A stretch of DNA of 64,000 nucleotides, from assembly GCF_009914755.1 (NCBI RefSeq), contig NC_060926.1; one strand, written 5' to 3'. Under the pieces are notes generated by a model, which saw nothing but the letters and a program-made list of their open reading frames with translations, did not search any database and was not told where the DNA came from. Below, one piece after another: positions 26,426-48,866 of the stretch; position 1 is the first letter of the stretch, and every line of letters starts with the position of its first letter. Source of the DNA: the human T2T-CHM13v2.0 reference genome, Homo sapiens. The position numbers were made by a program, and so were the translations under genes.

Positions 26426-29400
26426 GTGAGAATTCTCACCATCTGGATAGAACTCTCACAATCTGGATAGAATTCTCATTCTCTGGATAGAACTCTCAAT
26501 ATCTATCTGGATATAATTGTCGCCCTCTGAATAGAACTCTCACTATCTCAATACAATTCTCACCATCTAGATAGAACTCTCACTATCTGCATAGAATTCT
26601 CACTCTCTGTATATAACTCTCACTATCTATCGAGATAGAATACTCACTCTCTGGATAGAACTCTCACTATCTGGATAGAATTCTCACTCTCTGGATAGAT
26701 CTCTTACTGTCTATCTGGATAGAATTCTCACTCTGGGGACAGAACTCTCACTATCTATCTGGATGGAATTCTCTCCCTCTGCATAGGACTGTCACTCTCT
26801 GGATAGAATTCTCACCATCTGGATAGAACTCCCACTATCTGGAAAGAATTCTCAGTCTTTAGTTAGAACTCTCGCTATCTTTGTGGATACAGTTCTCACC
26901 CTCCAGAGAGAACTCTCACTATCTATCTAGATAGAATTATCACTCTCTGGATAGAAATCTCACTATCTGTCTGGATAGAATTCTCACCATCAGGATAGAA
27001 CTCTCACTGTCTGGATAAAATTCTCACCATCGGGATAGAACTCTCACTATCTAGATAGAATTCTCACTCTCTGGATAGAACTCTCACCATCTAAATATAA
27101 TTCTCACTCTCAGGATAGAACTCTCACTATCTATCTGGATGGGATTCTCCCTCTATGGATAGAACTCTCAGTGTATATCTGGATAGAATTCTCACTCACT
27201 GTATAGAACTCTCACTATCTGTCTGGATAGAATTCTCACCATGTGTATTGATCTCTCACTCTCGGGATAGAATTATAACTCTCTGGATAGAACTCTCACT
27301 ATCTATCTGGATAGAATTCTTACCATCTGGATAGAACTCTCACTATCTGAATAGAATTCTCACTCTCTGGATAGAACTCTCACTTTCTAGCTTGCTAGAA
27401 TTCTCACCCTCTGGATACAGTTCTAACTATCTGTATAGAATTCTCACACTCTGGGTAGAACTCCCACTATGTATCTGGATAGAGTTCTCACTTTCTGGAT
27501 AGAACTCTCACTATCTATCTGAATAGAATTCTCACCCTATGGGTAGAACTCTGACTATCTGTCTGGATAGAATTCTCTCCATCCTGACAGAACTCTCAAT
27601 ATCTGGATGGAATTCTCACTCTCTGGATAGAACTCTCACTCTCTTTGTGGATAGAACTCTCACTCCCTGTCTGGATAGAACTCTCACACCCTGTCTGGAT
27701 AGAACTCTCACTCCCTGTCTGGATAGAACTCTCACTCTCTAGATAGAACTGTTAATAACTGGATAGAATTTTCACCATCTGGATAGAACTCTCACTATCT
27801 GGATAGAACTCTCACCATGTGTATAAAACTCTCACTGTGTGGGAAGAGAACTCTCACTTTCTGGATAGAAATCTCACTTTCTATCTGGATAGAACTCTCC
27901 CCATGTAGATAGAACTCTCCCTATCTGGATACAATTTTCCCATCTGAATAGAACTCTCTATCCGGATAGAATTCTCACTCTCTGGGTAGAACTCTCTATC
28001 TATCTGGATATAATTCTCACTTTCTGGATAGAACTCTCACTATCTATCTGGATGGAATTCTCACCATCTGGAAGAAGTTTCACTATCTGGATAGAATTCT
28101 CACTCTAGATAAAACTCTCACTATCTATCTGGATAGAATTCTCACCCTCTGGATAGAACGCTCACTATCTATCTGGATAGAATTCTCACTCTCTGGATAA
28201 AACTCTCACTATCTGTCTGGTAGAATTCTCACCATCTGGATAGAATTCTCACTATCTGGATAGAATTCTTACTTTCTGGATAGAACTCTCAGTGTCTTTC
28301 TGGATAGAATTCTCACCCTCTGGATAGAACTCGCACTATCTACCTGGATAGAAGTCTCACTCTCTGGATATAACTCTCACTAACTGTCTGGATAGAATTC
28401 TCACTATCTGCATAGAATTCTATCTGTCTGGTTAGAATTTTCACTCTCTAGATAGAACTCTCACTATCTATCTGGATAGAATTCTCACTCTCTGGATAGA
28501 ACTCTCACTATCTATCTGGACAGAATTCTCACTCTCTGGATAAAACTCTTAACTATCTGTCTGGATAGAATTCTCACCATCTGGACAGAACTCTCACTAT
28601 CGGTCTGGATAAAATTCTCACCATCTGTGTAGAATTCTCACTATCTGCATAGAATTCTTACTCTCTGGATAGAACTCTCTCGTATTCCTCGATAGAACTC
28701 TGACCATCTGGATAGAACTCTCACTATCTATCTGGATAGAATTCTCATTCTCTGGATAGAACTCTCACTATCTGGATAGAATCCTCACTCTATATAGAAC
28801 TCTCACTATCTCTCTGGATAGAATTCTCACTCTGGAAAGAACCCTCACTATCTATATGGAAAGAATTCTCAACATCTGGATAGAATCCTCACTATCTGGA
28901 TAGAATTCTCACTCTCTCGATAGAACTCTTGCTATCTGTCTGGATAGAATTCTCACCACCTAGATAGAACTCTCAATAAATGGTAGAATTCTTACTCTCT
29001 GGACAAAACTCTCACTATCTTTCAGGATAGAACTCTTACTACCTGGAGAGAACTCTCACTATCTGGATAGAATTCTCAACATCTGAGGATAGATTTCCAA
29101 CTATCTATCTGGATATAATTCCCACTCTGTCGTTAGAACTCTCACTACCTGTCTAGATACAATTTTCACCATCCATGAACAACTCTCACAATCTGTATGG
29201 AATTCGCTATCTCTGGATAGAAGTCTTACTATCAATCTGGATATAATTCTCACTCTCTGGATAGAACTCTCACTATCTGGGTAGATTGCTCACCATCTGG
29301 ATAGAATTCTCACTATCTATCTATAGAATTCTCACTCTCTAGATAGAACTCTCAATATATATCTGGATAGAATTCTTACCATCTGGATAGAACTCTCACT

Positions 29401-32400
29401 ATCTGGAGAGAATTCTCACTCTCTGTGTGGAACTCTCACTATTTATCTGGATAGAATTCTCAACATCTAGATAGAACTCTCACTATTTGTCTGGATAGAG
29501 TTCTCACCATATGGACAGAACTCTCACTATCTGGTTAGAATTCTCACTCTCTGGATAGAACTCTCACTATCTGTCTGGATAGAAATCTCACCATCTGAAT
29601 TGAACTCTCACTAACTGGATAGAATTCTTATTCTCTGGATAAAACTCTCACTATCTTTCTTGATAGAACTCTTACTAACTGGGAGGAACTCTCACTATCT
29701 GGATAGAATTCTCAACATCTGGATAGAATTCTCACTATCTATCTGGATAGAATTCTCTGTCTCTGGATAGAACTCTCACTATATATCTGGACAGAACTCT
29801 CACAATCTGGATAGAATTGTCATTCTCTGAATAGTACTCTCACTATCTATCTCGATAGAATTCTCACCATCTGGATAGAACTCTATCTGTCTGGATAGAC
29901 TACTCACCATTTGGATAGAACTCTATTTTTCTGTATAGAACTCTCACTATCTATCTGGATGGAATTCCCACTCTCTGGATAGAACTTTCACTACCTGTCT
30001 GGATAGATTTCTCACACTCTGGTTAGAACTCTCACTATCTGGATAGAATTCTCACCGTCTGGGTAGAACTCTCACTATCTGGATAGAATTCTCACTCTGG
30101 ATAGAACTCTGACTATCTATTTCAATAGAATTCTCACCCTCTGGATAGAACTCTCACTATCTATCTGGATAGAATTCTCACACTCCGGATAGAACTCTCA
30201 ATATCTATCTAGATAGAACTCTCACTATCTGGATAGAATTCTCACCCTCTGGATACAACTCTCACTGTCTATCTGGATAGAATTCTTAGTCTCTGGATAG
30301 AAGTCTCACTCTCTGTCTGGCTATAATTCTCAAAATCTGGGTGGAACTCTCACTATCTATCTGGATAGAATTCTCACCATCTGGATAGAACTCTCACTAT
30401 CTGTCTGGATAGAACTGTCACTCTCAGAACTTTCTGGATAGAATTCTCACTGTCTGGATAGAATTCTCACCAAATGTCTGGATAGAATTCTCACTCTGTG
30501 GATAGAACTCTGACTGTCTATCTGGATAGAATTCTCTCCCTCTGGATACAACTCTCACTATCTGGATAGAATTCTCACACTCTGGATACAACTCTCACTC
30601 TCTGTCTGGATATAATTCTCACCCTCTGGATAGAATTCTCACTATCTGGATAGAATTCTCGCCATCTGCATGCACGGGATTCTAACTATCTGTCTAGATA
30701 GAATTTTCACCATCTGGATAGCGCTCTTACTATCTGGATAGAATTCTCACTCTGCATAGAACTCTCACTATCTATCTGGATAGAGCTCTTACTATCTGGA
30801 TAGAATTCTCACTCTGCATAGAACTCTCACTATCTATCTGGATAGAATTCTCACTCTCTGGATAGATCTCTCACTATTTGTCTGGAAAGAATTCTCACTC
30901 TGTGGATAGAACTGTCGCTATCAATCTGGATAGAATTCTCACCCTCTGGATAGAACTCTCACTATCTAGAAGGATTTCTCACCATCCAGATAGAACTCTC
31001 ACTATCTGGATAGAATTCTCACTATCTGGATAGAACTCTCACTATCTATCTTGATAGAATTCTCACCCTCTGGATAGCACTCTCACTATATATCTGGATA
31101 GAATTCTCGCTTGCTGGATAAAACTCTCACTATCCGTCTGGATAGAATTCTCACCATCTAGTTAGAACTTTCACTATCTGGATAGAATTCTCACTCTCTG
31201 GATAGAACTCTCACTATCTATCTGGATAGAATTCTCATTCTCTGGATAGATCTCTCATTATCTGTCTGGAGAGAATACTCATTCTCTGGATAGAACTCTC
31301 ACTATCAATGTGGATAGAATTCTCACCCTCTGGACAGAACTCTGAGTATCTGGATAGAATTATCATCCTCTGGATAGAACTCTCACTATCTATCTGGATA
31401 GAATTCTCACCCTCTGGACAGAACTCTGAGTATCTGGATAGAATTATCATCCTCTGGATAGAACTCTCACTATCTGTCTGGATAAAATTCTCACTCTCTG
31501 GATAGAACTCTCACTATCTGTCTGGATAGAATTCTCACCATCTGGATAAAACTCTCACTCTCTGGTAGAATTCTCATGATCTGGATAGAACTCTCACTAT
31601 CTGGATAGAATTCTTACACTCTGGATAGAACTCTCACTATCTTCCTGGACGGAACTCTCACCCTCTGGATAGAACTCTCACTATTTGGATAGAATTCTCA
31701 CTATCTGGATAAAAGTCTCACTCTCTGTTTGGTACAGTTCTCACGATCTGGATAGAACTCTCACTATCTGGATAGAATTCTTACACTCTGGATAGAACTC
31801 TCACTATCTTTCTGGATGGAACTCTCACCCTCTAGATAGAACTCTCACTATCTATCTGGTTAGAATTCTCACTCTCTCGATTGAAGTCTCACTATCTGGA
31901 TAGAATTCTCACCATCTGCAGAGAACTCTCACTGTCTATCTCGATAAAACTCTCACTACCTATCTGGATAGAACTCTCGCTATCTGGATAGAATTGTCAC
32001 CATCTGGGTAGAACTCTGACAATCTCTCTGGATAGAATTCTCACCCTCTGGATGGAACTCTCACTATCTGGATAGAATTCTTACTCTCTGGATAGAACTC
32101 TCACTATCTGCTGTATAGAATTCTCACCCTCTGGATAGAACTGTCACTATCTGTCTGTATAGAATTCTCACCCTCTGGATAGAACTCTAACAATCTGGAT
32201 AGAATTCTCACTCTCTGCATAGAACTCTCACTGTCTATCTGGATAGAATTCTCACTCTCTGGATAGAACTCTCACTATATATCTGGATATAATTCTCACT
32301 CTCTGGATAGAACTCTCACTATCCGGATAGAATTCTCACCATCTGGTTAGAATTATCACTATCTATCGGGATAGAATTCTCACTCTCTGGATAGAACCCT

Positions 32401-35400
32401 CACTATCTATATGGAAATAACTCTCACCATCTGGGTAGAATTCTCCCTATCTAGATAGAATTCTCACTGTCTACATAGAGCTCTCGCTATCTGTCTGGAT
32501 AGAATTCTCACCATCTAGATAGAACTCTCACTGACTGGATAGAATTCTTACTCTCTGGATAAACATCTCACTATCTTTCTTGATAGAACTCTTACTACTT
32601 GGAAAGAATGCTCACTATCTGTATAGAATTCTAACCATCTGGGTAGAATTCTCACTATCTATCTGGATAGAAGTCTCACTATCTATTTGGATAGAATTCT
32701 CATTCTCTGGATAGATCTCTCACTATCTGTCTGGATCGTATTCCCATTCTGTGGATAGAACTCTCACTATCAATGCGGATAGAATTCTCACCATCTGGAT
32801 AGAACTCTCACTATCTATCTGGATAGAATTCTCACTCTCTGGATAAAACTCTATCTGTCTGGATAGAATTCTCAGCATCTGGATAAAACTCTCCCTGTCT
32901 GTCTGGTAGAATTCTCACCATCTGGATAGAACTCTCATTATCTGGATAGAATTCTTACTCTCTGGATAGAACTCTCACTATCTTTCTGGATAGAACTATC
33001 ACCCTCTGGATAGAACTCTCACAATCTGGATAGAATTCTCACTCCCCAGATAGTGGACACTATGTCTCACTATCCGGATAGTGGACATAATTCTCACTAT
33101 CCGGATAGAAATTTCACCATCTGCATAGAACTCTCACTACCGGGATAGAATTCTCACTCTCTGGGTAGAACTCTCACTATCTATCTGGATAGAATTCTCA
33201 CCATCTGCATTGAAATCTCACTATCTATCTGGATAGAATTATCACTCTCTGGATAGAACTCTCACTATCTACCTCGATATAATTCTCACTCTCTGGATAG
33301 AACTAGCACTATGTGAATAGAATTCTTACTCTCTGGATAGAACTCTCGCTATCTGTCTGGATAGAATTCTCACCATCTAGATAGAACTCTCACTAACTGG
33401 ATAGAATTCTTACTCTCTTGGTAAAAATCTCACTATCTTTCTGGATAGAACTCTTACTACCTGGAAAGAACTCTCAGTATCTGGCTAGATTTCTCACCAT
33501 CTGGGTAGAATTCTCACTATCTATCTTGATAGAATTCTCACTCTTTGGATAGAACTCTCACTATCTGTCTGGATAGAATTCTCAGCATCTGGATAGAACT
33601 CTCACTATCTGGGTAGTATTCTCACTCTCTTGGTAGAACTCTCACTATCTATCTGGATAGAATTCTCACAATCTGGATAGAAGTCTTACTGTGTATCTGG
33701 ATAGAATTTTCACTCTCTGGATAGAACTCTCACTATCTATATGGAGAGAATTATCACCAACTGTATAGAACTCTCACTATCTGAATAGAATTCTCACTCT
33801 CTGGATAGAATTCTCGCTATCTGTCTGGATAGAATTCTCACCATCTAGATAGAACTCTCACTAACTGGATAGAATTCTTACTCTGAATAAAACTCTCACT
33901 ATGTTTCTGGATAGAACTCTTACTACCTGGAAACAACTCTCACTATATGGATAGTATTCTCACTATCTGGATAGAATTCTCACCTTCTAACTGGATAGAA
34001 TAGAATTCTCACTCTCTGGATAGAACTCTCACTATCTATCTGGATAGAATTCTCACCATCTGGATAGAACTCTCACGATCTGGGTAGAATTCTAAGTCTC
34101 TTGGTAGAACTCTCACTATCTCTCTGTGTAGAATTCTGATAATCTGGTTAGCACTCTTACTAACTGTCTGGATAGAATTCTCACTCTCTGGATAGAACTC
34201 TCACTCTCTGTCTAGGTAGAATTTTCACCATCTGGAAACAACTCTTACAATCTGGATAGGATTCTCACTCTCTGGATAGAACTCTTACTATCAATCTGGA
34301 TAGAATTCTCACTGTCTGTATAGAACTCTCACTATCTGGATAGATTTCTCACCATCTGGATAGAATTCTCACTCTGTGGGTAGAACTCTTACTATCTATC
34401 TTGATAGGGTTCTCACCATATGGATAGAACTCTCACTATCTATCTGGATAGAATTCTCACTCTCTGGATATAACTCTCACTATCTGGATAGAATTTTCAC
34501 TCTCTGGATATAACTCTCACTACCTATCTGGATATAATTCTCACTCTCTGGATAGCACTCACTATCTGGATAGAATTCTCACCATCGGGATAGAATTCTC
34601 ACTATATACCTAGATAGAATTCTCACAATCTGGATAGAACTCTCACTATCTATCTGGATAGAATTCTCACTATCTGGATAGAACTCTCACTATCTGCATA
34701 GAATTCTCACTCTCTAGATAGAACTCTCGCTATTCATCTAGAGAGAATTCCCATCTGAATAGTACTCTCACTAACTGGATAGAATTCCTACTCTCTGGAT
34801 AAAACTCTCACTATCTTTCCGGATAGAACTCTTAGTATCTGGAAAGAACTGTCACTATCTGGATAGAATTCTCACCCTCTGGATAGAACTCTCACTATCT
34901 ATCTGGATAGAATTCTATGTCTCTGGATAGAATTCTCACTATCTGTCAGGATAAAATTCTCACCATCTGGATAGAACTCTCACTGTCTATCTTGATAGAA
35001 TTCTCACCATCTGGATAGAACTCTCACTATCTGTCTGGATAGAATACTCACCATTTGGATAGAACTCTCACTATCTGTCTGGATAGAACTCTTACTATCT
35101 ATCTGGATGGAATTCTCACTCTGTGGATAGGACTCTCACTACCTGTCTGGATAGAATTCTCACTCTCTGGATAGAACTCTCACTATCTGTCTAGGTAGAA
35201 TTCTCACTCTCTGGATAGAACTCTATTTGTCTAGGTAGAATTTTCACCGTCCGGAAACATCTCTCACAATCTGGATAGGATTCTCACTCTGTAGGTAGAA
35301 CTCTTACTGTCAATCTGGATATAATTCTCACTCTCTGGGTAGAACTCTCACTATCTGGATAGATTTGTCACCATCTGCATAGAATTCTCACTATCTGTCT

Positions 35401-37283
35401 GGATAGAATTCTCACTCTCTGGGTAGAACTCTCACTATCTATCTGGATAGAATTCCCACCATCTGGATAGAATTCTTACTGTGTGGATAAAATACTCACT
35501 CTCTGGATAGAACTCTCACTCTCTCTATATATAGAATTCCCACGATCTGGATAGAACTTTCACTATCTGGATAGAATTCTCACTCTGTGGGTAGAACTCT
35601 CACTATCTATTTTCATAGAATTCTCACCATATGGATAGAATTCTCACTATCTGTCTGGATAGAATTTTCACTCTCTGGATGGAACCCTCACTACCTATCT
35701 GGATATAATTCTCACTCTCTGGATAGCACTCACTATCTGGATAGAATTCTCACCATCTGAATAGAACTGTCAGTATCTGAATAGAATTCTCACTCTCTGG
35801 ATAGAACTCTATCTATCTAGATAGAATTCTCACCCTCTGGATAGATCTCTCACCATCTGTCTGGGTAGAATTCTCTCCATCTGTATAGAACTCTAACTAT
35901 CTGGATAGAATTCTCACCATCTGCATGGAACTCTCACTATCTGTCTAGGTAGAATTCTCACTATGTGGATAGAGCTCTCACTATCTGGATGGAATTCTCA
36001 ATCTCTGCATAGAACTCTCACTATCTATCTGGATAGAATTCCCACCCTCTAGGTAGAACTCTCACTATCTGGATAGAATTCTCACCGTCTGCATGGAACT
36101 GTCACTATCTGGATAGAATTCTCACTCTCTGTATAAAACTCTCACTATCTATCTAGATAGAATACTCACTATCTGGATAGAACTCTCACTGTCTATCTGG
36201 ACGGAATTCTCACTCTCTGGATACAACTCTCACTATCTGGATAGAATTGTAACTCTCTGCATATAACTCTCACTATCTATCTAGATAGAATTCTCACTCT
36301 GTGGATAGAACTCTGACTATGTATCTGGATAGAATTCTCACCCTCTGGATACAACTCTCACTATCTGGATAGAATTCTCACTCTCTGGATAGAACTCCCA
36401 CTATCTGTCTGGATAGAATTCTCACCCTCTGGATAGAACGCTCACTGTCTGGATAGAATTCTCAGCATCTGCATGGAACTCTCACTATCTGTCTATGTAG
36501 AATTCTCAACATCTGGATAGAGCTCTCACTATCTAGATAGAATTCTCACCATCTGCATGGAACTCTCACTATCTGTCTAGGTACAATTCTCATCATCTGC
36601 TTAGAGCTCTCACTATCTGGATAGAATTCTCAGTCTCTGCATAGAACTGTCACTATCTATCTGGATAGAATTCTCACCCTCTGGATAGAACTCTTACTAT
36701 CTGGATAGAATTCTCACATCTGCATGGAACTCTCACTATCTGTCTGGATAGAATTCTTACCATCTGGATAGAGCTCTCAGTATCTGGATAGAATTCTCAG
36801 TCTCTGCATAGCACTCTCACTATCTGTCTGGATAGAATTCTCACTCTATGGATAGAACTCTGACTATCTATCTGGATAGAATTCTCACCCTCTAGATAGA
36901 ACTCTCACTATCTGGATAGAATTCTCACCCTCTAGATAGAACTCTCACTATCTGGATAGAATTCTCCCTACTGATAGAACTCTCACTCTCTCTCTGGATA
37001 GAATTCTCACTGTCTGGATAGAACTCTCAATATCTATGTGGATAGAACTCTCACTGTCTATCTGGATAGAATTCTTAATCTCTGGATAGAAGTCTCACTA
37101 TCAGTCTGGATAGAATTCTCACCATCTGGATAGAACTTTCACTATCTGTCTAGATAGATCTCTCACTATCTATCTGGATAGAATTCTCACTCTCTGGATA
37201 GAATTCTCACTATCTGTCTCGATAGAATGCTCACTCTGTGGATAGAACTCTGACTATCTATCTGGATAGAATTCTCACCCTCT
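26426..37283. repeat. Large tandem array (left arm) of 20/24-bp units CTGGATAGAA(C/T)TCTCAC(T/C)(A/C)T(+CTAT/CTGT) in ABCG8 intron 6
   Basis: Continuous periodic sequence, EcoRI site in roughly alternate units, TAG in nearly every unit (ORF desert). Confidence 0.97.
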
Positions 37284-38691
<1,408 letters not shown>

Positions 38692-41600
38692 AGAATTCTC
38701 ACCCTCTGGAGAGAACTCTCACTATCTGGATAAAATTCTCACTCTAGATAGAACTCTCACTCTCTATCTGGATAGAATTCTCACCATCTGGATAGAACTC
38801 TCACTATCTAGATAGAATTCTCACCCTCTGGATAGAACTGTCACTATCTGGATAGAATTGTCACCATCTGCATGGAACTCTCACTATCTGTCCAGATAGA
38901 ATTCTCACCATCTGGATAGAGCTCTCACTGTCTGGATAGAATTCTCAATCTCTGCATAGAACTCTCACTGTCTGGATAGAATTCTCAGTCTCTGTATAGA
39001 ACTCTCACTATCTGTCTGGATAGAATTCTCACTCTGTGGATAGAACTCTCCGTATCAATCTGGATAGAATTCTCACCCTCTGGATAGAACTGTCACTATC
39101 TGGAAGGAATTCTCACCATCTGGATAGAACTGTCACTATCTGGATAGAATTCTCACTCTCTAGATAGAATTCTCACTATCTTTCTCAATAGAATTCTCAC
39201 CCTCTGGATAGAACTCTCACTATCTCTCTGGATAGAATTCTGACTCGCTGGATAAAACTCTCACTATCCGTTTGGATAGAATTCTCACCATCTGGATAGA
39301 ACTCTCACTATCTGGATAGAATGCTCACTCTCTGGATAGAACTCTCACTATCAATCTGGATAGAATTCTCACTCTCTGGATAGAGCTCTCACTATCTATC
39401 TCGATATAATTTTCATTCTCTGGATAGATCTCTCACTGTCTGCCTGGATCGAATTCTCATTCTATGGATAGAACTCTCAGTATCAATGTGGATAGAATTC
39501 TCACCCTCTGGATGGAACTGTCACTATCTATCTCAATAGAATTCTCACCCTCTGGATAGACCTCTCACTAGCTATCTGGATAGAATTCTCACTCTCTGGA
39601 TAAAACTCTCACTGTCTGTCTGGATAGAATTCTCACCATCTGGATAAAACTCTCACTATCTGTCTGGTAGAATTCTCACTATCTGGATAGAACTCTCAGT
39701 ATCTGTATAGAATTCTTACTCTCTGGATAGAACTCTCACTATCTTTCTCGATAGAACTGTCACCCTCTGGATAGAATTCGCACTATCTATCTGGATAGAA
39801 TTCTGTCTCTGGATAGAAGTCTCATTATCTGTCTGGATAGAATTCTCACCATCTGCATAGAATATTCACTATCTGTCTGGATAGAATTCTGACCAGCTGG
39901 AGAGAACTCTCACTATCTGGATAGAATAATCATCGTCTGGATAGAACTCTGACTCTCTGTCTGGATAGCACTCTCACTACCTTTCTGGATAGAATTCTCA
40001 CTCTCTGGATACTACTCTCGCTATCTGGATAGAATTCTCAGCATCTGGATATAATTCCCACTATCGATCAGGATAGAATTCTCACTCTGTGGATAGAACT
40101 CTGACAATGTATCTGGATAGAATTGTCACCCTCTGGATAGAACTCTCACTATCTGGGTAGAATTCTCACTCTAGATAGAACTCTCACAATCTTTCAGATA
40201 GAATTCTCCTCCTCTGGATAGAGCTCTCACAGTCTGGATAGAATTCTCACTCTGTGGATAGAACTGTCACTATCTGGATAGAATACTCACCATCTCGATA
40301 GAACTCTCACTGTCTATCTGGATAGACTTCTCGGTCTCTGGATAGAAGTCTCAATGCCTGTCTAGATAGAATTTTCACCATCCGGATACAACTCTCACTA
40401 TCTGGATAGAATTCTCATTCTCTGGATTGATCTCTCACTATCTATCTGGATATAATTCTCACTCTCTGGATAGATCTCTCACTATCTGTCTGGATAGAAT
40501 TCTCACTGTGGGTAGAATTCTCACTATCATTCTGGACATAATTCTTACCCTCTGGGTTGAACTCTCACTATCTGGATAGAATTCTCACCATGTGGGTGGA
40601 ACTCTCACTATCTATCTGGATAGTATTCTCGCTCTCTGGAAAGAACTCTCACTATCTTTCTGGATAGAATTCTTACCCTCTGGATAGAACTCTCACTATC
40701 TGGATAGAATTCTCAACATCTGGATAGAACTCTTACTGTCTATCTGAATAGATTTCTCACTCTCTGGATAGAACTCTCACTATCTATCTGGATAGAATTC
40801 TCACTCTTTGGATGAAACTCTCAGTATCTGTCTGGATAGAATTCTCACCATCTGGATAAAACTCTCACTATCTGTCTGGATAGAATTCTCACCATCTGGA
40901 TAGAACTCTCAGTATCTGGATAGAATTCTTACTCTCTGGATAGAACTCTCACTATCTTTTTGGTTAGAACTGTCACCCTGTGGATAGAAATTTCTCTATC
41001 TATCTGGATAGAATTCTCCCTCTCTGGATAGAAGTCTCATTATCTGTCTGGATAGAATTCTCACCATCTGGATAGAAGTGTCACTATCTGTCTGGATAGA
41101 ATTCTTACCATCTGGAGAGAACTCTCACTATCTGGATAGAATTCTCACCATCTGGCTAGAACCCTCACTATCTGTCTGGATGGAACTCTCACTATCTATG
41201 TAGACAGAATTCTCACTCTCTGGATAGAACTCTCGCTATCTGGATTGAATTTTCACCATCTGGATGGAATTCTCACTGTCGATCACGTTGGAATTCTCAC
41301 TCTGTGGATAGAACTGTGACAATCTATCTGGATAGAATTCTCACCCTCTGGATAGAACTCTCAGTATCTGGATAGAATTCTTACTCTTGATAGAACTCTA
41401 TTTGTCTGCATAGACTTCTCACCATCTGGATAGAACTCTCAGTCTCTGGATAGAATTCTCACTGTCTGGATGGAACTCTCACTACCTGTCTCGATAGAAT
41501 TCTCACCCTCTGGATAGAACTCTCACAATCTGGATAGAATTCTCACTGTCTGGATATAATCCTCACTCTCTGGATAGAACTAGCACTATCTGGGTAGAAT

Positions 41601-42848
41601 TCTCACAATCTGGATAGAATTCTCACTATCTGGATAGAATTCTAACTCTGGATAGAACTCTCACTATCTATATGGAAAGAATTCACTCTCTGGATAGAAT
41701 TCTCACTGTGTATGTTGATGGAATTCTCAGGCTGTGGATATAACTCTCACTATCTATCTGGATAGAATTTTTACTATCTGGATAGAATTCTCACTATCTG
41801 GGTAGTATTCTCACTCTCTGGATAGAACTCTCACTCTCTATCTGGATAGAATTCTCACCCTTTGGATAGAACTCTCACTATCTGTCTGGGTAGAATTCGC
41901 TCCGTCGTAATAGAACTCTCACTATCTGGATGGAATTCTCACTCTCTGGATAGAACTCTCACTATCTGTGTGGATAGAATTCTCACCATCTGCATAGAAC
42001 TCTCACTATATGGGTAGAATTCTGACTCTCTGGATCGAACTCTCACTATCTGTCTGGAAAGAATCCTCACTCTTTGGATAGAACTCTCATTTTCTGTCTG
42101 GATAGAATTTTCACCATCTGGATAGAATCTCACTATCTAGATAGAATTCTCATTCTCTGGATAGAACTCTCACTGTCTATCTGGATAGAACTCTCACTCT
42201 CTGTCTCATTAGATCTCTCACTGTCTGTCTGGATAGAACTCTAACTCTCTGGATAGAACTCTTAATAACTCGATAGAACTTTCACCATCTGGATAGAACT
42301 CTCACCATCTGAATAAAACTCTCACTGTGTGGGAATAGAACTCTCACTCTCTGGATAGAACTCTCACTATCTATCTGGATAGAATTCTTACTCTAGATAG
42401 AACTCTCACTATCTGTCTGGATAGAATTCTCACCATCTGGATCAAACTCTCACTATCTGGATAGAATTCTCACCCTCTGGATAGAACTGTCACTATCTAT
42501 CTGGATAGAACTCTCCCCATCTGGATTGAACTCTCACTATCTGGATAGAATTCTCACCCTCTGGATAGAACTCTCACTTTCTGGATAGAATTCTCACCCT
42601 CTGGATAGAACTCTCACTATCTGGATAGAATTCTCACTCTCTGGATAGAACTCTCACTCTCTGGATAGAACTCTCACTATCTGGATAGAATGCTCACTCT
42701 CTGGATAGAACTCTCACTATCTGGATAGAATTCTCACCCTCTGGATAGAACTGTCACTGTCTATCTGGATAGAACTCTCCCCATCTGGATTGAACTCTCG
42801 CTATCTGGATAGAATTCTCACTCTCTGGATGGAACGCTCACTATCTGG
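38692..42848. repeat. Large tandem array (right arm), same 20/24-bp unit
   Basis: Same unit resumes immediately after the L1 poly(A) and ends about 460 bp before exon 7. Confidence 0.97.
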
Positions 42849-43770: not shown

Positions 43771-44823
<1,053 letters not shown>

Positions 44824-45054
44824 CTGTCCGTACATCTTTATGGAAGTAATTGATTTTTTCCTCAGGATCATTTCTTTGAGTAACATTGCCAAGCTGATAC
44901 ATTCATGATAAAAGTAACAATCATTTATTGAGTACCTACTGTGGGACAGATGCTGTCATCAGTTTTCTGATTTAATCCTCAGAGCCACTCTATGAGGCAG
45001 GTATTACCATCCCCATTTTGCATAGGAGAAAAATGAGGCTTATGGAGACTGTGA

Positions 45055-46415: not shown

Positions 46416-46781
<366 letters not shown>

Positions 46782-47717
46782 TAGGACTCATGTGACTGGA
46801 TGAAGCCTGCTTTCATCTGGAGATGGACACTTATCACTTAGATCCAACTCGAGGCTGGCCCTTCTGGAAGCAGAGGCCTTTGCCCACTGCCCTGGAGGCC
46901 AAAGGAATGATTCCATTAGAGATTCCAGATGCACCTCCTCCTATCCCACAGCTGATATCCAGAAGTCGCCCTTGACTGTCTCCCTCCCTCTCCACATCCA
47001 CCTGTGAGCCAGGTCGATTCTGCCTCCTGTTTCTCTGAAATGTCTGCTTGGCTGTGTCTCCATCCCTGGCCACCATTGTTTGAGCCTGGGCCACTGCCAT
47101 AGCCTGGTCTCTGTAACCTGGGCCCCTCCACATCCCTCTCGACTCAGCCACGCAGAGTGAGCTTTCCAAGGTGCAAACCCATGCCCCCCTTTGTTCAAAT
47201 CTTCCCAGGGTTGCTCAATCCCTGCGGCCTCCCCAGCTTTCTGAAGCCCCCAGCACACCCCACCCTCTCACCTCTGAGCCTGCCCAGCTATTGTCTCTGG
47301 GAATGTCATGCCCGCCTTCCATGGGGCATCTCTTCTGCCAGGGCTTTCCTGATGCACCCAGGCAGGGCTCATTGCCTCCTTCCCCTCCCCATACCATGCC
47401 ACCTCCATAGGATCAGGGCACAGGCTCCATTGTCTCTGGTGTGGGGCCGCTGAGTCTCCTCAGCCCACACAGTCCATGAAGCTGAGCACGTGCAGGGATG
47501 CCTCATCACATCCCTCTCGAGAATTGCTATGGATCAAATGTGTGGGTGACCCCGTGGCCTCTCAGCTCCCTCGGCCCCAGTCCATGTCCCCAGCAACCCC
47601 TCTGCCCTTTTGCCTCTTGGTCTCTGGTCTCTCTCCCCTCCTTGCTCATCAGAGAACTTGGGCCAGAGCCACCATGGCCCTGTCTCAGAGAGTGGGATGT
47701 GCCCTTGTGCAGGTAAG

Positions 47718-48866
47718 AGAGACTGTGTGACTGTGGGGAGACCATGGGAATATGGGGAGACTGAATACGGGGGAGACTGTGTCGATATAAAGGAGATCAT
47801 GGGAATACGGGGAGACCATGAGAATAGGAGGAGACCGTGGGAATATGGGGAGACGGTGAGAATATGGGAAGACTGCAAGAATATAGGGAGACCATGGGAA
47901 TATGGGGAGACTATGGGAATATGGGGAGATCACATGAATATGCAGGAGACTGTGAGAATATGGGGAGACCGTGAGAATATGGGGAGACTGTGGGAATATG
48001 AGGAAAGTGTGAATATGGGGGAGACCATGTCAATATAAAGGAGCCGTGGGAATATGGGGAGACTGTGGGAATATGGGAGAGAGAGTGTCAATATAAAGGA
48101 GACTGTGGGAATAGGGGGAGACCGTGGGAATATGAAGAGACTGTGTGAATATGGGGGAGACCATGTCAATATAAAGGAGATCGTCGGAATATGGGGAGAT
48201 TGTGCGAATATGGGGAGACCATGGGAATATGGGGAGACTGTGGGAATATGGGGAGATCATGTGAATATGCAGGAGACCGTGTCAATATAAAGGAGACAGT
48301 GGGGATATGGGGAGACCATGAGAATATAGGGAGACCATGGGAATATGAAGAAACTGTGTGAATATGGGGGAGACTGGGAGTATGGGGAGACTCTGGTAAT
48401 ATGGGGAGACTGGGAATATGAGGAAACTGTGAATATGGGGGAGACTGTGGGAATATGGGGAGACCGTGGGAATATGAGGAGACTGTGTGAATATGGGGAA
48501 GACCATGTCAATATAAAGAAGACCATGGGAATATGGGGAGACCATGGGAATATGAGGAAACTGGATATGGGGGAGGCCGTGTCAATATAAAGGAGACCGT
48601 GGGAATATGGGGAGACTGTGGGAATATGAGCAGACTGTGTGAATATGGGGGAGACCACATCAATATAAAGGAGATCGTGGGAATATGGGGAGATCGTGCG
48701 AATATGGGGAGCCCATGGGAATATGGGGAGACTGAATATATGGGAGACTGTGGGAATATGGGGAGATCATGCAAATATGGGCAGACCATGGGAATATGGG
48801 GAGACTCTGTGAATATGGGGGAGACCATGCGAATATGGGGAAACCATGAGAATATGAGGGACACCT
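47718..48866. repeat. G-rich ~20-bp minisatellite (GGAGAC(T/C)(G/A)TGGGAATATGG, variant GGAGACCATGTCAATATAAA) in ABCG8 intron 11
   Basis: About 1.15 kb of imperfect 20-21-bp units ending ~27 nt before the exon 12 acceptor. Confidence 0.95.

What the first reader, a model, noticed from the sequence alone, without database searches (positions are those of the whole stretch)
47653..47712. Candidate in-frame 60-nt cassette exon in ABCG8 intron 11
Seen: a ~55-nt AG-free pyrimidine tract ends in CATCAG| (47652), followed by exactly 60 nt ending at a near-consensus donor CAG|GTAAGA (47713). In the phase-1 frame of intron 11 it is stop-free and would insert ENLGQSHHGPVSESGMCPCA between T585 and V586, in the extracellular region after TM5, adding two cysteines. 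The G-run VNTR begins immediately downstream, and G-triplets downstream of a donor are established hnRNP H/F splicing enhancers. Inference: a VNTR-length-dependent alternative ABCG8 isoform or latent pseudoexon, relevant to unexplained sitosterolemia alleles.
Basis: partly seen in the sequence, partly recalled or inferred. Interest (0 to 1): 0.7.

Follow-up and report, generated by a model that had tools for sequence, protein, structure and literature searches.

The report
Dormant pseudoexon in ABCG8 intron 11
A 60-base stretch inside an intron of the human sterol-transporter gene ABCG8 has strong exon-like borders but lacks a normally placed branch-point adenosine, so it is likely skipped, and a single-base change that supplied one would be predicted to switch it on and likely damage the protein.

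Summary
The sequence observation is exact: a 57-nt AG-free tract, CAG|47653, 60 nt, CAG|GTAAGA at 47713, giving an in-frame 20-aa insert between T585 and V586. Such a pair is locally rare, but genome-wide a pattern fitted to it occurs 296 times against 269 for the reversed control, so the look alone says little. The acceptor has no adenosine from -56 to -6, whereas 12 of 12 real ABCG8 acceptors have a TnA branch-like motif at -14 to -45. RefSeq has no such exon. 105 of 120 homologs keep the junction uninterrupted and none carries the cassette. One surprise: a minke whale ABCG8 model leaves exon 11 for the orthologous segment (7 identical residues, same frame) and ends there. 'VNTR-length dependence' is unsupported: intron 11 has the same net length in the hg19 reference and CHM13. 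Verdict: most likely a dormant pseudoexon, not a functional isoform, and a plausible site for deep-intronic sitosterolemia alleles. No RNA data could be queried.

The parts
46479..46746 (+). ABCG8 exon 11 (ends phase 1; donor CAG|GTAAGG)
   Evidence: annotation supplied; translation; PDB match residues 497-585
47594..47650 (+). AG-free pyrimidine tract, 57 nt, CU-rich (10 CU tetramers); no A from 47597 to 47647
47595..47596 (+). Only adenosines that could serve as a distal branch point (-58, -57); they lack the T at -2 of the yTnAy consensus
   Evidence: role inferred
47650..47652 (+). Candidate acceptor CAG; a second AG at 47653-4 would give a 58-nt frameshifting exon; upstream AGs at 47564-5 and 47579-80 would give in-frame 147- and 132-nt exons
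47653..47712 (+). Candidate 60-nt pseudoexon (c.1756+907 to +966), in frame, two exonic GGG triplets
47658..47733 (+). Segment orthologous to the tail of minke whale ABCG8 isoform X2 (P0042): 7 identical codons at 47658-47678, then colinear to about 47733; at the human GT the whale protein back-translates to CAR ATG
47713..47718 (+). Candidate donor GTAAGA (8 of 9 consensus positions with the exonic CAG)
47719..48865 (+). Degenerate G-rich minisatellite, 19-nt unit, about 60 copies, 68 G-runs, 10 AATATA and 8 TATAAA, no AATAAA or ATTAAA
   Evidence: one weak relative elsewhere in the genome
48894..49021 (+). ABCG8 exon 12; weak tract (52% pyrimidine) but a GTAAC branch-like motif at -20

Best explanation
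This is likely a dormant pseudoexon: the 60-nt segment has a near-consensus donor and a long pyrimidine tract but no adenosine where a branch point normally lies, so the spliceosome is predicted to skip it (inclusion likely under about 1%), and its 20-residue insert would likely disable ABCG8 rather than form a working isoform. Shown: the sites, the frame, the A-free 51 nt, the TnA motifs at all real ABCG8 acceptors, the uninterrupted junction in homologs, the orthologous segment in a whale model. Inferred: U1 and U2AF can probably bind, but U2 has nothing good to pair with, so lariat formation goes to the weaker-looking exon 12 acceptor, which does have a branch motif; PTBP1 on the CU-rich tract, exonic GGG silencers and pairing of the tract with the purine-rich repeat may add to the silence. 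Predicted: a single-base change that creates a branch motif in c.1756+848 to +890 (13 such changes) would switch the exon on and act as a loss-of-function allele that exome sequencing misses.
For: No A at -56 to -6 and no TnA between -57 and -6, against TnA at -14 to -45 in 12 of 12 real acceptors. Not in either RefSeq ABCG8 transcript in the supplied annotation, although its acceptor tract looks stronger than exon 12's (0.90 vs 0.52 pyrimidine). Genome-wide this architecture is hardly enriched over a reversed control, 296 vs 269. 105 of 120 homologs join the exon 11 and exon 12 peptides with no insertion; the other 15 are 11 read-throughs into the intron, 3 deletion or skip models and the whale model. 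ABCG1 aligns over the junction with equal length, 44 vs 44 residues (weak, E 0.38). The site lies between TMH5 and the conserved re-entry helix, which holds disease variants such as L596R (PMC7756502 passages); A588P, G574R/E and G575D flank it (PMC13158039 passages). No representative protein carries the insert peptide. Exonic G-runs act as silencers (PMC12062376 passage); PTBP1 binds CU-rich tracts upstream of repressed exons (PMC10551640 passage).
Against: No RNA-seq, SpliceAI or MaxEntScan could be run, so silence is inferred from annotation. The pair is the strongest in 19.9 kb of non-repeat ABCG8 intron and has no equal in 400 kb of background strand. Long AG-free zones with distal branch points occur at real regulated exons (recalled), and adenosines exist at -57/-58. 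A whale model shows that the orthologous segment can be spliced. A primate protein with a 20-aa insert could be hidden inside the 58-member cluster of P0001, which I could not list; the search had only 2 candidates and is weak evidence.
Confidence: 0.72

Rival explanations
1. A genuine minor cassette exon, included at a few percent in liver or gut through a distal branch point at -57/-58 and held down by PTBP1.
For: Very long AG-free zone with adenosines at its 5' edge; strong donor; frame-preserving and stop-free; orthologous segment spliced in a whale model in the same frame; locally rare architecture.
Against: The distal adenosines lack the -2 T; no RefSeq model; no homolog with the cassette among 120; the whale protein implies no GT at the human donor, so the cassette as such is not conserved; the whale's first 14 nt do not align to the human acceptor (score below the null mean).
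Confidence: 0.13
2. The acceptor is used on its own as an alternative last exon, reading through the donor into the minisatellite and ending at weak poly(A) signals there, as the whale model appears to do.
For: P0042 leaves exon 11 for this segment and stops 28 residues later; the human frame stays open from 47550 to 48038; the repeat holds 10 AATATA and 8 TATAAA hexamers.
Against: No AATAAA or ATTAAA in intron 11; same branch-point defect; U1 bound at the strong donor would be expected to suppress nearby cleavage (recalled); a single automated gene model whose read support I could not see.
Confidence: 0.07
3. One reading: hnRNP H/F on the G-rich repeat enhances the donor, so repeat length sets the inclusion level.
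For: 6 G-runs within 100 nt of the donor; G-runs downstream of donors are enhancers (PMC12062376 passages).
Against: Length variation not seen: 2624 nt between c.1505 and c.1895 in both the hg19 coordinates and CHM13 (only two assemblies); array is degenerate (72% matches, longest exact repeat 37 nt); in the TP53 study G-runs were needed by a weak donor while a strong one worked without them; the limiting defect here is at the branch point; changes in total array length would not alter the donor-proximal G-runs (inference); predicted tract accessibility is lower with the repeat (0.36) than with 8 of 8 replacement sequences (0.43-0.55).
Confidence: 0.04
4. Only the donor matters: either as a transient recursive site (AG|GT at 47711-47714) or as the end of an internal first exon that uses the perfect Kozak ATG at 47674.
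For: CAG|GTAAGA doubles as an AG|GT junction; GCCACCATGG at 47668-47677 (2 in the 64-kb window counting both strands, 0 in 200 kb of background).
Against: Intron is only 2.1 kb and the tract before 47711 is short; the ATG is out of the ABCG8 frame and gives a 30-aa peptide; no promoter evidence.
Confidence: 0.04

Closest known systems
Deep-intronic pseudoexons activated by variants (general class, recalled; includes branch-point-creating variants)
   Same: Intronic segment of exon size with pre-existing good acceptor and donor, unannotated, one element short of recognition.
   Different: No activating variant or patient is known here (searches and the catalogue passages); the missing element is the branch point and not the donor; the insert is in frame, so it would escape nonsense-mediated decay.
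PTBP1/2-repressed non-conserved cryptic exons (Ling et al. 2016; title seen in a reference list; content recalled)
   Same: CU-rich tract next to an unannotated exon.
   Different: No knock-down or CLIP evidence tested; the tract is not a pure CU microsatellite and has the same CU tetramer count (10) as the constitutive exon 2 acceptor.
Minke whale ABCG8 isoform X2 (P0042, NCBI model)
   Same: Leaves exon 11 for the orthologous intron 11 segment in the same frame; 7 identical residues.
   Different: Starts 3 codons earlier, so a different or shifted AG; runs through the position of the human donor and stops, giving a truncated 616-aa protein instead of a cassette.
VNTRs that modulate splicing of a neighbouring exon (class recalled)
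   Same: Intronic minisatellite adjoining a splice site.
   Different: No length variation or splicing association shown; the ABCG8 repeat discussed in print is the much larger one in intron 6 (PMC4079513 passages).

Membership tests
Pseudoexon (latent exon) | Canonical AG and GT with consensus-like context at exon-size spacing inside an intron | tested here: met
Pseudoexon (latent exon) | Absent from annotated mature transcripts | tested here: met
   RefSeq table supplied with the finding; no cassette among 120 homologous proteins; GENCODE not available
Pseudoexon (latent exon) | Negligible inclusion in normal tissue RNA | not testable with these tools
   no RNA-seq access
Pseudoexon (latent exon) | Can be activated by a variant or by loss of a repressor | not testable with these tools
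   13 branch-motif-creating single-base changes listed in silico; needs a minigene
Functional alternative cassette exon | Usable branch point upstream of the acceptor | tested here: not met
   no A at -56 to -6, no TnA at -57 to -6; 12 of 12 real acceptors have one; a non-consensus distal branch point is not excluded
Functional alternative cassette exon | Conserved splice sites and peptide across species | tested here: inconclusive
   7 codons shared with one whale model, but donor apparently absent and acceptor shifted there; no primate or other mammal genomes available
Functional alternative cassette exon | Reading frame preserved, no stop | tested here: met
Functional alternative cassette exon | Insertion site tolerant of length change | tested here: not met
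   no insertion in 105 of 120 homologs, the rest being read-throughs, deletions or the truncated whale model
Splicing-modulating VNTR | Copy number varies between people | tested here: inconclusive
   same net intron length in two assemblies; population data not available
Splicing-modulating VNTR | Inclusion level tracks repeat length | not testable with these tools
   needs sQTL data or minigenes

The most novel reading that the evidence does not exclude
Intron 11 of ABCG8 holds an old latent acceptor region, spliced as a terminal exon in a whale, that in humans is closed by a near-perfect donor into a complete in-frame exon kept silent only by a 51-nt stretch purged of adenosines; it is a one-base hot spot for deep-intronic sitosterolemia alleles (c.1756+848 to +890), and the adjoining minisatellite, which begins in the same ancestral segment, helps mask it by base pairing.
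Probability: 0.15. Interest if true: 0.55.

Novelty: new member of a known kind. Interest (0 to 1): 0.3.

Why it matters
If the exon is merely dormant it is one of very many exon-like decoys in human introns and matters little. Its value is practical: it names a 43-nt window and 13 specific changes that a diagnostic laboratory could look for in genome sequences of sitosterolemia patients with only one known ABCG8 allele, and such an exon would be a natural target for a splice-blocking oligonucleotide. The whale model shows the region is not inert in all mammals and offers a small case of exon-like signals turning over on orthologous intron DNA.

Tried and rejected
Searches used the wrong frame of exon 11 (my slip); one search's empty result is uninformative and cost one of three protein searches. 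One search's strand comparison was distorted by the 16-kb tandem repeat in intron 6 and was redone without it. AlphaFold model of ABCG8 from 24 of the 120 homologs: pLDDT 40.8, not used. Search with the whale tail found only itself among 2 candidates. Search of 1.84 billion representatives with the human frame 47550-47738 gave 2 low-complexity hits outside the insert. No Pfam family for the intron frame; no Rfam match near a gathering score. The acceptor-exon segment is single-copy in the genome at this sensitivity, so no repeat origin was shown. A specific hairpin between tract and repeat was rejected: z = -0.29, and 21 of 60 shuffled tracts paired as well; real acceptors have similar predicted accessibility (0.32-0.48). 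Use of the 47713 donor to extend exon 11 after loss of its own donor (c.1756+2T>A) would meet a stop early in the intron. Literature searches: ABCG8 + intron 11 (15 papers), + pseudoexon + sitosterolemia, + VNTR, + alternative splicing + isoform + exon 11 (unrelated), + cryptic exon; nothing in the listings describes this exon, but I opened only PMC13158039 and PMC4079513 of these, the library lacks most subscription papers, and no supplements were read. Xiao 2009, Ling 2016 and two further primary papers I asked for by recalled id were not held.

Full report
Observation. The annotated coding exons translate to the 673-aa ABCG8; exon 11 ends in phase 1; the candidate 47653-47712 (c.1756+907 to +966) has acceptor CATCAG, donor CAG|GTAAGA, and adds 20 residues without a stop between T585 and V586. 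The AG-free zone is 57 nt and 82% pyrimidine. The minisatellite starts 7 nt after the exon end (47719-48865, 19-nt unit, 60.3 copies, 72% matches). Searches used a wrong frame of exon 11 and are disregarded.

Chance. No MaxEntScan or SpliceAI was available, so I used simple rules (pyrimidine fraction at -25 to -5, AG-free length, donor matches). At the candidate's own level it is the only pair in 19,882 nt of non-repeat ABCG8 intron, with none on the opposite strand and none in 200 kb of chr2 background read on both strands; slightly looser rules give 2 pairs in those 400 kb of strand; rules loose enough to admit most real ABCG8 sites give about 150 pairs per 100 kb. The thresholds are post hoc and the background is AT-richer. 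A whole-genome pattern that the candidate matches (16 pyrimidines, 6 any, YAG, 45-70 nt, MAGGTRAG) has 296 hits, and the reversed control 269; a stricter relative had 44 against 29. The reversed control is not a perfect null, but the result says that most stretches with this look are not exons. So the pair is striking for its window and unremarkable for the genome.

What is missing. The tract has no adenosine from 47597 to 47647 (51 nt; 0 A, 7 G) and no TnA motif between -57 and -6. All 12 real ABCG8 acceptors have at least one TnA at -14 to -45, including exon 12, whose tract is poor but which has GTAAC at -20. All 56 strong decoy acceptors in the AT-rich background had an A in -50 to -15, so the A-free stretch is itself unusual. 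The nearest adenosines, at -57 and -58, lack the T two bases upstream that the yTnAy consensus (recalled) requires. This is the simplest reason why an acceptor that looks better than exon 12's is absent from both RefSeq transcripts. Possible helpers, all inferred: PTBP1 on CU-rich tracts (PMC10551640, passages; but the constitutive exon 2 acceptor has as many CU tetramers); two exonic GGG triplets (exonic G-runs are silencers: PMC12062376, passages); and pairing of the tract with the purine-rich repeat (predicted accessibility 0.36 against 0.43-0.55 in 8 of 8 replacements, but 21 of 60 shuffled tracts pair as well and real acceptors score 0.32-0.48). Thirteen single-base changes between c.1756+848 and +890 would create a TnAy motif without creating an AG.

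Homologs. A search with the exon 11 peptide found 166 proteins, of which the best 120 were returned. Of these 120, 105 continue directly into the exon 12 peptide with no insertion, 11 read on into the intron, 3 lack part of the region, and none carries the cassette. Among the 87 that fitted my strict pattern W584, V586, S591, S594 and F595 are invariant (V586 and the last three partly by construction of the pattern). ABCG1 aligns across the junction with equal length (E 0.38). The site lies between TMH5 and the re-entry helix, which reviews describe as conserved and as carrying disease variants (PMC7756502 and PMC6824678, passages); the catalogue lists G574R/E, G575D, A588P and L596R nearby (PMC13158039, passages). 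My own structure prediction failed (pLDDT 40.8), so disruption by the insert is an inference. Limits: clustering at 90% identity could hide a primate isoform with the insert in the 58-member cluster of P0001; two searches found nothing further but are weak.

The whale model. The remaining protein, P0042 (Balaenoptera acutorostrata ABCG8 isoform X2, 616 aa, cluster of 2), leaves the canonical sequence exactly at the end of exon 11 and ends 28 residues later; residues 594-600 are identical to residues 3-9 of the human insert. All 21 bases at 47658-47678 are compatible with it, the best place in intron 11; no 7-residue match to the whale tail occurs in 399,920 background codons; and the rest of the tail aligns colinearly to about 47733 (7 of 400 random starts scored as well). 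In that back-translated alignment the human GT faces ATG, so the whale model reads through the place of the human donor, and its last codons match the first unit of the human minisatellite. The whale's first 14 nt do not align to the human acceptor. Reading: the segment is orthologous, and an acceptor within a few bases of the human one is used in at least one automated gene model; the cassette itself is not conserved. Seven shared codons do not prove coding selection, and a same-frame case is the only kind a protein search could reveal. I could not see the model's read support or any whale DNA.

The repeat. Published coordinates put c.1505 at 2:44102301 (PMC9786046, table passage; build not stated in the passage, taken as hg19 because the exon 10-11 spacing of 691 nt and the second coordinate agree) and c.1895 at chr2:44104925 (PMC5241214, hg19, passage): 2624 nt apart, the same as in this CHM13 window. 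Six G-runs lie within 100 nt of the donor, at the top of the range of real ABCG8 donors (0-6). In the TP53 minigene study G-runs were required by a weak donor, while a strong cryptic donor was used when they were deleted; the candidate donor is near consensus, so G-runs are unlikely to be limiting (inference; the dependence on donor strength reported by Xiao 2009 is recalled, the paper was not held). The ABCG8 repeat discussed in print is the large one in intron 6 (PMC4079513, passages; 26429-42848 here).

Prior description. Five searches showed no listing that describes this exon; I read passages of two of the listed papers only, and no supplements. In the 2026 catalogue of 155 cases the word 'intronic' does not occur in the main text, and the only ABCG8 intron 11 variant in the passages seen is c.1756+2T>A. 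GENCODE, GTEx and ClinVar could not be consulted.

Verdict. A real, well-formed but most likely dormant pseudoexon (0.72), silent chiefly for want of a branch point; a minor regulated cassette 0.13; an alternative last exon as in the whale model 0.07; repeat-length control 0.04; donor-only uses 0.04. It is a new member of a known kind. Interest 0.3: modest, raised by the whale link and by a short list of directly testable variants.

Noticed in passing
window 47668-47677 (+): Perfect Kozak context GCCACCATGG inside the candidate exon; the ATG is out of the ABCG8 frame and, spliced to exon 12, would give a 30-aa peptide. Probably chance; a second copy lies on the minus strand of the window.
   Followed up: partly
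window 26429-42848 (+), ABCG8 intron 6: About 16 kb compound tandem repeat (20/44-nt units) interrupted at 37284-38691; described in PMC4079513 as 10.8-kb and 4.1-kb arrays separated by a LINE.
   Followed up: partly
window 44547-44664 (+), ABCG8 intron 8: Second exon-like pair (118 nt, frameshifting, donor CAG|GTGTGT) inside a stretch masked as repeat (44516-44829); looks like a typical repeat-derived decoy.
   Followed up: no
window 47550-48038 (+): The ABCG8 frame stays open for 162 codons from upstream of the acceptor into the minisatellite; no Pfam match.
   Followed up: partly
P0042 (minke whale ABCG8), about residue 272: The histidine of the H-loop motif present in human ABCG8 and in P0043 is glutamine in the minke whale model.
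   Followed up: no
G000:C8:142836889-142837163: The only other genomic match to the intron 11 minisatellite, 67% identity over about 290 nt.
   Followed up: no
about G000:C2:44497626-44497708 (+), locus L006: An 83-nt exon-like pair with donor CAG|GTAAGA in the background region used as control; not checked against annotation.
   Followed up: no
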